NCBI RefSeq assembly: GCF_965641715.1
Contig: NZ_OZ282453.1
Direction: 5' to 3' (one strand)
DNA length: 64,000 nucleotides
From: Escherichia coli
GTDB taxonomy: Bacteria; Pseudomonadota; Gammaproteobacteria; Enterobacterales; Enterobacteriaceae
The position numbers were made by a program, and so were the translations under genes. Every line of letters begins with the position of its first letter. The first letter of the stretch is position 1. Below, piece by piece: positions 20,721-22,064 of this stretch. The notes below the pieces were generated by a model. The model ran no database searches. It saw nothing but the letters and a program-made list of their open reading frames with translations, and was not told the origin of the DNA.

Positions 20721-22064
20721 TCAACTAAAAAACACTTTTAGCATTTCCGTTTTATCAGAGATACTCATTCCTTTATAATAAGATATGATTTCGGTATAGA
20801 AATCTCGCGCATACATAGATAGTTTACTTTGCTTCCATGTATTTTTATTTATAGGAGATAAAAATATTTTCAACCGCTCCATTGCTGGCGGGTGAACGCC
20901 ATCCTTCAATGTTGCAATTCTAACATAAGAGCCAAAGTCATCTCGAATTAAGTCGGACATTTGCTCACAGAAATGCATATGTTCAAACAATACCTCAACA
21001 CCTTCAACTATCTCATTATAATTTACATACGAGTCTTCATTATATAAAGCTGGTTCCACGCCTTCAATATTATTCACGGCCAAAAGATAGTTTGCAAGTG
21101 CATCTGCTTCGACTTCGAATCCAATTTTCTTTTTCTTCTTTGACTCAATATCACTAATTATGACTGATTTTTGCGGATGCTCGAGTATGTGGTGGGCAAT
21201 TTCGTGCATGAGTATAAAATCGATTTGGCATTCTGTTATGAATTTAACACGTTTAACTGAATCGTTGAATAAAATAGTGGGAGGTATATAAGCAATGCAC
21301 TCAACATTCGTACAGAGATAAATAACTAATGGGATAAAATGATTTATTGCTCGATAAGCCCGCGGGCGATGACTCATATGTGTAGTTGAGTAAAAATGCT
21401 CTAGTTGTCTATTAAACTCAAATAAAACATCACGTAACGCATAATTAGCCGTGATAAATCTAATTCCATCTTTGTTTGCACTGGTTGCGTTCATTCCTCG
21501 TTTTTTAATAGGAAAAAAAGCTATATTGTGTAATGATGATTCTTTAATAATCTTATTTGGTATATGTGATAATAAACGCAATTGACTAAATCTCATCCAA
21601 TAGGGGAGGAGTTTTTTGGTTTTATCAAAATTCTCTGCCATCTTACCAGATGCTGCCGCTAACGTTTTTGCAAGCGATATTTCATGCTCCTGCATCGCCT
21701 TGAGCATGTTGTTAGAATTAGGTTCGTTCCAACTCATTACAAATGTATTCCTAATTCCTGAAAATATAGTTTCCCATATTTTTTGGTCATGATAATTACA
21801 TGCACTTGTTATCAATTCCTTCTGAGTATCAGATAGCTCAGGAAAAGAACTGTAGTCAACGACCATGAAAGACTCTAGGTCTATAACCATATTAAATCTA
21901 TTTCCACCGAGCTCCTTCCTGCAAGACTCAGGAACCCCGAGGTACGTTTCGGCCATGATAATGTCTATTTGGTGCTGCTTTAGCAAGATATCACATAGTT
22001 TGTTATCCTTGGCAATTCGATCATAATAATATTTGTTGTACCCAGATAAATTTTGCATAAACAT
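20721..22064 (-). CDS. hypothetical protein with C-terminal HExxH metallopeptidase-like motif
   Basis: 447-aa ORF, strongly AT-rich; motif FILMHEIAHHILEH; alternative start ATG at 22058. Confidence 0.5.
   Translation of the reverse strand: MFMQNLSGYNKYYYDRIAKDNKLCDILLKQHQIDIIMAETYLGVPESCRKELGGNRFNMVIDLESFMVVDYSSFPELSDTQKELITSACNYHDQKIWETIFSGIRNTFVMSWNEPNSNNMLKAMQEHEISLAKTLAAASGKMAENFDKTKKLLPYWMRFSQLRLLSHIPNKIIKESSLHNIAFFPIKKRGMNATSANKDGIRFITANYALRDVLFEFNRQLEHFYSTTHMSHRPRAYRAINHFIPLVIYLCTNVECIAYIPPTILFNDSVKRVKFITECQIDFILMHEIAHHILEHPQKSVIISDIESKKKKKIGFEVEADALANYLLAVNNIEGVEPALYNEDSYVNYNEIVEGVEVLFEHMHFCEQMSDLIRDDFGSYVRIATLKDGVHPPAMERLKIFLSPINKNTWKQSKLSMYARDFYTEIISYYKGMSISDKTEMLKVFFS

What the first reader, a model, noticed from the sequence alone, without database searches (positions are those of the whole stretch)
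20721..22064. Strongly AT-rich 447-aa protein with a C-terminal HExxH Zn-peptidase-like motif in integrase-proximal cargo
Located between the decayed invertase and the integrase, the classical moron/defence position of temperate phages (where K-12 CPS-53 carries gtr-type genes, as I recall). The protein has about 280 aa of unrecognisable N-terminal sequence followed by FILMHEIAHHILEH, reminiscent of the ImmA/IrrE (M78) peptidase core. No adjacent HTH repressor partner is visible, so it is not an obvious ImmA/ImmR pair. Base composition is far below the genome average, indicating recent horizontal acquisition. A standalone sensor-protease type defence protein is plausible.
Basis: partly seen in the sequence, partly recalled or inferred. 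Interest (0 to 1): 0.75.

Follow-up and report, generated by a model that had tools for sequence, protein, structure and literature searches.

The report
Lit-like zinc protease, candidate phage defence
The AT-rich gene is real and encodes a well-conserved zinc protease related to the classic phage-exclusion protease Lit but with a new N-terminal domain; it travels between enterobacteria as a small cassette that lands next to known anti-phage genes, so it is a good but untested candidate for a new single-gene phage defence.

Summary
The ORF exists as described: minus strand, 20721..22064, 35% GC against 50% for the window. The true start is probably ATG 22058, giving 445 aa. It is a genuine zincin metallopeptidase. 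It carries HEIAH (287-291), a third zinc ligand in E317xxAD, and an HPx4R motif (391-397). That is the exact signature of family M48 and of Lit (U49).

- **Relation to Lit:** a profile-profile comparison with the Lit family gives 96.5% probability over 139 columns.
- **New part:** only residues 1-150 remain unrecognisable. They are a family-specific domain with no sequence or fold relative.
- **Rarity:** the family has 47 clusters among 1.84 billion representatives and matches no Pfam, NCBIfam or PADLOC model above threshold.

The gene sits in a 1.78-kb cassette: an IS3-family remnant, the last 13 codons of a lost upstream gene, and the protease. Serratia and Yersinia carry the same cassette at 92-94% nucleotide identity, in other contexts. 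dN/dS among these copies is 0.11-0.14, so the gene is functional on its own.

Its neighbours elsewhere are Tmn, McrBC, PDC-S31, PDC-S32 and PD-T7-1. Here it replaced a DUF262 gene. Defence by a Lit-like abortive mechanism is the best reading but is untested.

The parts
20721..22058 (-). Protease gene, 445 aa plus stop. It equals RefSeq WP_053275928.1.
   Evidence: ORF; RefSeq CDS. The start at the second ATG is supported by homologues and by loss of the first ATG in Yersinia. dN/dS is 0.11-0.14 against the Serratia and Yersinia copies.
21615..22064 (-). Family-specific N-terminal alpha/beta domain, residues 1-150 in 447-aa numbering. I propose it as the sensor or regulatory domain.
20724..21614 (-). 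Zincin (M48/Lit-like) catalytic domain, residues ~151-447. The LPYWxR motif (153-158) lies at the domain junction.
21192..21206 (-). HEIAH: zinc ligands H287 and H291, catalytic E288.
   Evidence: Translation. E288 and H291 are invariant and H287 is conserved in at least 90% of the 32 homologues.
21102..21116 (-). E317-V-E-A-D321: predicted third zinc ligand (ExxAD motif).
   Evidence: E317, A320 and D321 are invariant. The motif aligns with FEFQAD of ZMPSTE24 (chain residues 411-434) and with EEREAD of Lit.
20874..20894 (-). H391-P-P-A-M-E-R397: HPx4R motif, the 'active-site plug' of M48 peptidases.
   Evidence: The pattern H-E-x-x-H-x(30,140)-H-P-x(4)-R is matched by 31 of 32 family members and 20 of 21 Lit homologues. 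The motif and its plug role in BepA, and its presence in Lit, are described in PMC7950410.
22088..22129 (-). Stump of a lost upstream gene: its last 13 codons plus stop (EQALLDRLSNGEI*).
   Evidence: tblastn of the 227-aa gene that precedes the protease in L004 and L005. DNA homology to L004 begins exactly here. Junction alignment.
22130..22482 (.). Internally deleted IS3-family element remnant abutting the stump. Its outer end is the upstream boundary of the mobile cassette.
   Evidence: RefSeq annotates an 'IS3 family transposase' pseudogene here. The same junction and the same outer boundary (TGAGCGATCAACGG...) occur in E. coli, Yersinia and Serratia. Serratia keeps ~400 nt more of the IS interior, with rve fragments.
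22087..22116 (-). Promoter-like site TGGACA-18 nt-TATAAT inside the stump, ~30 nt upstream of the start codon.
   Evidence: It matches 11 of 12 consensus positions, the best in the region. The -35 is conserved in the E. coli, Yersinia and Serratia cassettes; the -10 is TGTAAT in Serratia. This is a consensus match only, with no expression data.
20700..22482 (-). The whole ~1.78-kb mobile cassette: IS remnant, gene stump and protease gene. GC is 36%.
   Evidence: It is 93.9% identical over 1781 nt to Yersinia and 91.9% over 1746 nt to Serratia, in unrelated genomic contexts. GC.
20338..20700 (.). Older layer of the hotspot: the truncated pin invertase (20382..20546, +) and about 58 nt of the 3' end of a DUF262 gene that the cassette displaced.
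   Evidence: It is 95.3% identical to E. coli PCN061, where the same pin remnant is followed by a DUF262 gene. More than 1600 E. coli genomes share this stretch.

Best explanation
The gene encodes a soluble cytoplasmic zinc metalloprotease. Its catalytic half (residues ~151-445) is a remote homologue of the phage-exclusion protease Lit and of M48 peptidases. The zinc is held by H287, H291 and E317. E288 is the catalytic base. An HPx4R 'plug' (H391-R397) is the element that in M48 enzymes occupies the active site and keeps the enzyme latent.

A family-specific 150-residue N-terminal domain is attached to this core. My reading is that the protein is a self-contained, single-gene abortive-infection or phage-exclusion module. 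It would stay latent in uninfected cells. A phage product would be recognised, probably through the N-terminal domain. The active site would then open and an essential host protein would be cut, as Lit cuts EF-Tu, which stops phage production.

**Shown here**
- The peptidase fold and its motifs.
- Homology to Lit.
- Purifying selection on the gene as a standalone unit.
- Spread as a mobile cassette.
- Location beside defence genes.

**Inferred, not shown**
- The defence role.
- Latency through the plug.
- A sensor role for the N-terminal domain.
- The nature of the trigger and of the substrate.
For: **Fold and active site**
- The AF2 model has pLDDT 88.3 and pTM 0.91.
- After five family members, Foldseek against AFDB50 finds proteins named MA-like, ImmA/IrrE, U49 and M48.
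- The catalytic residues are invariant.
- The M48/Lit signature is present in 31 of 32 members (with PMC7950410).

**Relation to Lit**
- hhalign of the family against 21 Lit homologues gives 96.5% probability, E 8.6e-10, over 139 columns.
- The best PADLOC and NCBIfam hits are Lit, although they cover only the motif.
- lit is also integrase-adjacent prophage cargo, in e14.
- Lit senses a capsid-protein motif and cleaves EF-Tu (PMC12803255).

**Standalone and functional**
- The E. coli, Serratia and Yersinia copies share the same IS-truncated upstream region.
- They differ by dS 0.17-0.27 but dN only 0.02-0.04, so dN/dS is 0.11-0.14.
- A 33%-identical relative is a lone, oppositely oriented moron in a Citrobacter lambdoid prophage.

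**Defence context**
- Serratia: adjacent to Tmn (E 5.6e-71).
- Yersinia: between PDC-S31 (1.4e-61) and McrBC, in an integrase-bounded island.
- Plasmid Rts1: between PDC-S32 (9e-49) and PD-T7-1 (6.8e-86), followed by an Aga nuclease.
- L004: PDC-S31 lies 3 kb away.
- This window: the cassette replaced a DUF262 gene in the pin-to-integrase slot.

**Mobility**
- The cluster at 90% identity spans nine enterobacterial genera.
- Only 1 of 5426 complete E. coli genomes carries it.
Against: - There is no experimental or expression evidence of any kind.
- No defence-family model reaches significance. PADLOC Lit gives E 5.9e-4 over 27 residues, and NCBIfam Lit scores 16 bits against a cut-off of 274.
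- Guilt by association rests on about eight independent contexts and was not scored statistically.
- The Lit alignment covers only the catalytic core, so trigger and substrate cannot be transferred from Lit.
- In Klebsiella and Moellerella plasmids the homologue is interrupted by IS1 or ISAs1. That fits a costly toxin, but it equally fits a dispensable gene.
- All E. coli copies are identical, so selection within E. coli cannot be assessed.
Confidence: 0.5

Rival explanations
1. It is a regulatory protease of the ImmA/IrrE/CapP type. It would cleave a repressor to switch on a prophage, an ICE or a neighbouring defence operon in response to DNA damage or ssDNA.
For: - The HExxH...ExxA(D/N) core is shared with M78.
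- Pfam M78 hits 2 of 32 members at E<=1e-3 and 15 of 32 at E<=0.1.
- The best PDB sequence hit is CapP 7t5t (E 0.005, 46 columns).
- NCBI names one relative 'ImmA/IrrE family metallo-endopeptidase'.
- The PADLOC CapP and PD-Lambda-2_B hits are weak.
Against: - No HTH or repressor gene is adjacent in any of the contexts examined.
- The neighbours differ completely between contexts, so there is no conserved substrate gene.
- M48 and Lit matches are stronger than M78.
- In the Citrobacter prophage the cI/cro-like pair lies ~3 kb away, across replication genes.
Confidence: 0.12
2. It serves the mobile element in some way other than defence against phages. It could be an addiction toxin, a weapon against competing elements, or a counter-defence or establishment factor that degrades a host protein.
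For: - The nearest non-cassette relatives (70-72% identity) sit on plasmid- or island-like DNA with umuDC, H-NS, RES and Ter genes.
- There they follow a 227-aa gene whose own relatives lie in plasmid leading-region neighbourhoods with psiA/psiB, ParB, anti-restriction and Hha genes.
- Relatives occur on conjugative plasmids.
- Frequent IS disruption suggests a cost to the host.
Against: - The cassette form has lost the 227-aa gene and is still under strong purifying selection.
- It sits on chromosomes directly beside bona fide defence genes, not beside transfer or establishment genes.
- tblastn finds no copy in 50,697 phage genomes, which argues against a phage counter-defence gene.
Confidence: 0.2
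3. It is a decaying passenger. Its native operon was broken by an IS element, and it now has no function in this strain.
For: - The upstream gene is truncated to 13 codons by an IS3-family remnant.
- All ten E. coli loci are identical, so there is no within-species signal.
- Expression rests on a consensus-only promoter match.
Against: - The reading frame is intact in nine genera.
- dN/dS is 0.11-0.14 among copies that all postdate the IS truncation.
- Every catalytic residue is retained.
- The 227-aa gene is not an obligate partner. Each gene occurs without the other.
Confidence: 0.08

Closest known systems
Lit (peptidase family U49, Pfam PF10463), the phage-exclusion protease of E. coli prophage e14
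   Same: - The three active-site motifs come in the same order: HEIxHxxLxHP, ExEAD and HPxxxER.
- Profile-profile homology runs over the beta-sheet and the two catalytic helices: 96.5% probability, 139 columns.
- Both are soluble proteins with no signal peptide or TM segment.
- Both are single genes carried as integrase-proximal prophage cargo.
   Different: - It is 445 aa against 297 aa.
- Residues 1-150 have no counterpart in Lit, and Lit's own N- and C-terminal parts are not aligned.
- It fails the PF10463 and NCBIfam Lit models.
- Pairwise identity is confined to ~30 residues.
- The trigger (Gol peptide) and the substrate (EF-Tu) cannot be assumed to carry over.
Peptidase family M48 (BepA, HtpX, LoiP, YcaL, Ste24/ZMPSTE24)
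   Same: - It matches the M48 signature HExxH-x(30,140)-HPx4R, including the plug histidine.
- Pfam M48 hits 7 of 32 family members.
- NCBI names some copies 'M48 family metalloprotease'.
   Different: - The window protein itself scores only i-E 0.12 on PF01435.
- It has no membrane or periplasmic targeting, unlike characterised M48 enzymes.
- It has an extra N-terminal domain.
- It is an accessory gene of mobile elements, not a housekeeping quality-control protease.
ImmA/IrrE (M78) peptidases, including CapP and the peptidase domain of PD-Lambda-2B
   Same: It shares the HExxH...ExxA(D/N) gluzincin core. It has weak profile hits to CapP (PDB 7t5t E 0.005; PADLOC 0.019) and to PD-Lambda-2_B (7e-4). 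All are linked to mobile elements and to defence.
   Different: These enzymes work with an adjacent or fused HTH repressor (PMC9519451; PMC13228613). No such partner exists here. M78 lacks the HPx4R plug motif that this family conserves.

Membership tests
Lit / peptidase U49 | Matches the family model (Pfam PF10463 or NCBIfam NF007238) above threshold. | tested here: not met
   Pfam hmmscan reports no PF10463 hit at E<=10. NCBIfam Lit scores 16 bits against a cut-off of 274. The only precomputed PF10463 hits are 'faint' or 'weak'.
Lit / peptidase U49 | Active-site motifs HExxHxxxxHP, ExEAD and HPx4R in this order. | tested here: met
   The motifs lie at residues 287-297, 317-321 and 391-397. 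Lit has the same.
Lit / peptidase U49 | Homology over the whole ~297-aa Lit protein. | tested here: not met
   hhalign covers Lit 40-199 only. The N-terminal 150 aa are unrelated to Lit.
Lit / peptidase U49 | Cleaves EF-Tu when the T4 Gol peptide is present, and excludes phage. | not testable with these tools
   This needs in vivo or in vitro assays.
Peptidase M48 | Signature H-E-x-x-H-x(30,140)-H-P-x(4)-R (PMC7950410). | tested here: met
   The window protein matches over residues 287..397, and 31 of 32 homologues match.
Peptidase M48 | Gluzincin fold superposable on solved M48 structures. | tested here: met
   [not shown]
Peptidase M48 | Significant match to Pfam PF01435. | tested here: inconclusive
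   The window protein gives i-E 0.12. Among the 32 homologues, 7 match at E<=1e-3 and 22 at E<=0.1, with a best value of 7e-6.
Peptidase M48 | Membrane or periplasmic location, as in characterised bacterial members. | tested here: not met
   No hydrophobic segment was found: the maximum Kyte-Doolittle value over 19 residues is 1.58. There is no N-terminal signal-like sequence.
ImmA/IrrE (M78), including CapP | Significant match to Pfam PF06114. | tested here: not met
   The window protein has no hit. Only 2 of 32 homologues match at E<=1e-3.
ImmA/IrrE (M78), including CapP | An adjacent or fused HTH repressor that is the substrate. | tested here: not met
   No HTH neighbour is present in the window or in any of eight independent contexts.
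Anti-phage defence system (generic) | Recurrent location in defence islands or mobile-element hotspots. | tested here: met
   Adjacent genes are Tmn, McrBC, PDC-S31, PDC-S32, PD-T7-1 and an Aga nuclease. Here it displaced a DUF262 gene. This is qualitative and was not statistically scored.
Anti-phage defence system (generic) | Protects against phage when expressed. | not testable with these tools
   No experiment was possible. No paper mentions these accessions.

The most novel reading that the evidence does not exclude
This is a previously undescribed family of single-gene phage-exclusion proteases. A Lit/M48-type latent zinc protease is coupled to a novel 150-residue N-terminal sensor domain. 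It would respond to a phage trigger other than the T4 Gol peptide and possibly cut a host target other than EF-Tu. It spreads among Enterobacterales as an IS-associated mini-cassette.
Probability: 0.4. Interest if true: 0.65.

Novelty: new variant of a known kind. Interest (0 to 1): 0.5.

Why it matters
Lit has stood for decades as the only member of its peptidase family and as the textbook case of a protease that aborts phage infection by cutting a translation factor. Here is a remote relative with the same catalytic machinery and a new putative sensing domain. It is under purifying selection and sits beside Tmn, McrBC, PD-T7-1 and other defence genes in several genera.

If it is a defence gene, Lit-type proteolytic abortive infection becomes a broader strategy with exchangeable sensor modules. 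It would also offer a compact, 445-residue, single-gene system for working out how such proteases are kept latent (the HP plug) and how they are triggered.

The locus also shows a prophage defence slot being overwritten. A DUF262 gene was replaced by an IS-borne cassette.

Tried and rejected
1. **Two-gene operon with the upstream 227-aa gene.** In the two closest non-cassette loci a 227-aa gene ends 27 nt before the protease, and its last 13 codons survive in the window. I rejected it as an obligate partner for three reasons. Its homologues in Pectobacterium and Acerihabitans lack the protease. More distant protease homologues lack it. The cassette copies evolve under dN/dS ~0.12 without it. 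It has no Pfam, PADLOC or NCBIfam hit.

2. **The 200-aa ORF 22545..23147 as partner.** It is unrelated to the 227-aa protein. It occurs without the protease in other E. coli and is absent from the Serratia and Yersinia cassettes.

3. **AbiJ-NTD4/PDC-S32 protein as a general partner.** It is adjacent only in the Rts1-like plasmid clade and is unrelated to the 227-aa protein.

4. **Searches that failed or found nothing.**
   - The search for related loci with the family alignment failed, because no stretch was conserved enough.
   - There was no match in 50,697 phage genomes.
   - The L004 locus had no DNA match in plasmids.
   - The Citrobacter-type homologue had no match in complete E. coli genomes.

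6. **Literature.** I found no paper on these accessions or on U49-like defence families. The DefensePredictor supplements have no hit.

7. **A Septu pair that is not in the window.** A Septu (PtuAB) pair seen in strain TL20 turned out to be absent from the window, which comes from another strain.
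Full report
**1. The observation**

The window has an open reading frame on the minus strand at 20721..22064. It is 447 aa long and contains FILMHEIAHHILEH. GC is 35.3% for the CDS against 49.9% for the window.

To its left lies a 54-codon stump of a Pin-type DNA invertase at 20382..20546. PHROG matches it as a DNA invertase at 1.6e-28, and RefSeq annotates it as a pseudogene. To its right lie a 200-aa ORF and then the IntS integrase next to tRNA-Arg and yfdC.

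The real start is most likely the second ATG, at 22058, which gives 445 aa. RefSeq uses it (WP_053275928.1). The homologues start MxNL... at that point. The Yersinia copy has ATA in place of the first ATG.

**2. What the protein is**

No family model recognises it outright.
- The best Pfam hit is M48 at i-E 0.12.
- PADLOC gives Lit at 5.9e-4, PD-Lambda-2_B at 7e-4 and CapP at 0.019. All three cover only the motif.
- NCBIfam Lit scores 16 bits against a cut-off of 274.

An exhaustive phmmer search of 1.84 billion representatives found only 47 clusters. Most are full-length proteins of 433-475 aa.

In an alignment of 32 of them, which share 18-72% identity with the window protein, these residues are invariant: P154, W156, L214, Q280, E288, H291, E317, A320, D321, L359, P392 and R397. 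H287, H296 and H391 are conserved in at least 90%.

These residues form three motifs: HExxHxxxxH(P), ExxAD and HPx4R. The combined pattern H-E-x-x-H-x(30,140)-H-P-x(4)-R was published as the signature of M48 peptidases. There the HP histidine is an 'active-site plug' whose mobility is needed for activity, and the same paper noted the pattern in Lit (PMC7950410). The pattern matches 31 of 32 family members and 20 of 21 Lit homologues.

Three further lines of evidence agree.
- **Pfam, member by member:** M48 hits 7 of 32 at E<=1e-3 and 22 of 32 at E<=0.1. M78 hits 2 of 32. DUF2201_N hits 1 of 32.
- **Profile against Lit:** comparison with an alignment of 21 Lit homologues gives 96.5% probability and E 8.6e-10 over 139 columns. 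Residues 177-331 of the window protein align with Lit 40-199.

The HExxH therefore sits in a genuine gluzincin peptidase domain. Its nearest characterised sequence relative is Lit.

**3. The locus is a layered hotspot and the gene arrived as a cassette**

The locus has three layers.
- **Window 20338-20700** is 95% identical to E. coli PCN061. There the same pin stump is followed by a DUF262 gene. About 58 nt of that gene's 3' end survive in the window.
- **Window 22426-23600**, holding the 200-aa ORF and intS, is 97.5% identical to E. coli NADC1036, which carries different cargo.
- **The ~1.78-kb block between them** (20700-22482, 36% GC) holds three things: an internally deleted IS3-family element, the last 13 codons plus stop of a gene (EQALLDRLSNGEI*), and the protease gene.

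That stump matches a 227-aa gene which precedes the protease by 27 nt in two plasmid- or island-like contigs. Those contigs carry the 70-72%-identical homologues.

The identical IS/stump junction and the identical outer IS boundary occur in Yersinia (93.9% over 1781 nt) and in Serratia (91.9% over 1746 nt), in quite different genomic settings. The truncation therefore happened once, and the cassette spread afterwards. The cluster at 90% identity includes E. coli, Serratia, Atlantibacter, Yersinia, Enterobacter, Pantoea, Pectobacterium, Klebsiella grimontii and Raoultella.

In E. coli the gene is rare. One of 5426 complete genomes carries it, and all ten E. coli loci fetched are identical apart from one synonymous site.

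**4. Is it functional alone?**

Yes, as far as sequence can tell. The E. coli, Serratia and Yersinia copies all postdate the loss of the upstream gene. Among them dS is 0.17-0.27 and dN is 0.02-0.04, so dN/dS is 0.11-0.14.

The 227-aa gene is not an obligate partner. Its homologues in Pectobacterium plasmids and in Acerihabitans have no protease next to them. More distant protease homologues lack the 227-aa gene. One example is a lone, oppositely oriented gene between dinI and perC/P in a Citrobacter lambdoid prophage.

A promoter-like site (TGGACA-18 nt-TATAAT, 11 of 12 consensus positions) lies inside the stump about 30 nt upstream of the start codon. This is only a consensus match.

**5. 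Context elsewhere**

| Context | Neighbours |
|---|---|
| Serratia, two different chromosomal sites | 1210-aa Tmn homologue next to it (PADLOC 5.6e-71) |
| Yersinia | Between PDC-S31/DUF2971 (1.4e-61) and McrBC, in an integrase-bounded island with anti-restriction and CbtA/CbeA genes |
| Plasmid Rts1 (36%-identical homologue) | Between an AbiJ-NTD4/PDC-S32 protein (9e-49) and PD-T7-1 (6.8e-86), followed by an Aga nuclease (2.8e-59) |
| Moellerella and Klebsiella plasmids | Same arrangement as Rts1, with the protease gene split by ISAs1 or IS1 |
| L004 | PDC-S31 3 kb away, plus a RES-domain gene |
| L005 | A TerY/TerD/PP2C/kinase cluster |
| L016 | An HNH_2 gene |

PD-T7-1 is an experimentally validated system (PMC9519451). 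No copy was found in 50,697 phage genomes.

**6. Mechanism**

The best-supported reading is a Lit-like, self-contained phage-exclusion protease.

In this model the zinc is held by H287, H291 and E317, and E288 is the base. The HP plug keeps the site closed. The novel N-terminal domain, or the plug region, responds to a phage product. The activated enzyme then cuts an essential host protein. Lit does exactly this with EF-Tu once the capsid-protein Gol motif appears (PMC12803255). Like this gene, lit is integrase-adjacent prophage cargo.

What is shown: the fold, the motifs, homology to Lit, selection, mobility and the neighbourhood. What is inferred: defence, latency, the sensor role, the trigger and the substrate.

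I put about 0.9 on 'M48/Lit-type zinc peptidase', about 0.85 on 'functional standalone mobile gene', about 0.55 on 'anti-phage defence' and about 0.3 on the specific Lit-like mechanism.

The rivals are these.
- An ImmA/CapP-like regulatory protease. This is disfavoured because there is no HTH partner and no conserved neighbour.
- Another function that benefits the mobile element, such as addiction, inter-element conflict or establishment.
- A functionless passenger. This is disfavoured by dN/dS and by the frame being intact in nine genera.

**7. Comparison and novelty**

The protein works like Lit and has an M48-type active site, but it is not a member of U49 by the family models. It also has a domain that Lit lacks. 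It is not an M78/ImmA protein.

No Pfam, NCBIfam, PADLOC or PHROG family describes it. The PHROG hits are to unknown-function families over the core only. No paper in the searchable library mentions it. A newer DefenseFinder or PADLOC release could not be checked.

I rate it a new variant of a known kind, namely a zincin abortive-infection protease. Interest is moderate (0.5). It is a clean and testable candidate, but it remains one more candidate defence gene until a phenotype is shown.

Noticed in passing
window 22545..23147 (-): A 200-aa ORF with an N-terminal hydrophobic helix and a long helical remainder sits directly next to intS. It is 97.5% identical at the nucleotide level to E. coli NADC1036 and a few other strains, where the adjacent cargo differs (a 299-aa hypothetical protein). 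Its only hits are weak ZorB/MotB-like ones (E ~2e-3). It is not part of the protease cassette.
   Followed up: partly
window 13884..15036 (+): A low-GC pair (0.43) lies inside the baseplate/tail module: a 266-aa ORF overlapping a 123-aa ORF that RefSeq calls 'HEPN domain-containing protein'. It could be a moron (toxin or abortive-infection gene) embedded among structural genes. It has no PADLOC or NCBIfam hit.
   Followed up: partly
window ~18060..20400; loci L006 vs L007/L011: The tail-fibre/assembly segment next to the pin stump occurs in opposite orientations in different E. coli isolates carrying this prophage, although the invertase is reduced to 42-54 codons. Either inversion predates the truncation or another Pin-family invertase acts in trans.
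   Followed up: no
window 20338..20700: The same pin stump plus ~160 nt is shared by more than 1600 of 5426 complete E. coli genomes. It is usually followed by a DUF262 (GmrSD-like) gene. This junction looks like a recurrent cargo-exchange point in Mu/P2-like prophages.
   Followed up: partly
window 27325..28356 (-): A very AT-rich (0.34 GC) 343-aa ORF rich in Asn/Asp/Ile lies between mlaA and fadL, at the yfdF position. Its length varies between strains (343, 352 or 415 aa), so it is a variable chromosomal locus outside the prophage.
   Followed up: no
L030/L032 (Serratia) and L034-L036 (Yersinia): In Serratia the protease cassette and a Tmn homologue sit together at two different chromosomal sites. 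Beyond the protease stop codon, Serratia and Yersinia share further downstream sequence that E. coli lacks. The mobile unit may originally have been larger than the 1.78 kb kept in E. coli.
   Followed up: partly
window 42100..42300, compared with E. coli TL20 (NZ_CP191567 3141520-3143323): Strain TL20 carries the identical prophage cassette and has a Septu PtuA/PtuB pair inserted between smrB and the yfc fimbrial operon. The window lacks it, and its core genes are only 95-96% identical to TL20. The window therefore comes from a different strain, and the cassette-bearing prophage is shared between lineages.
   Followed up: yes
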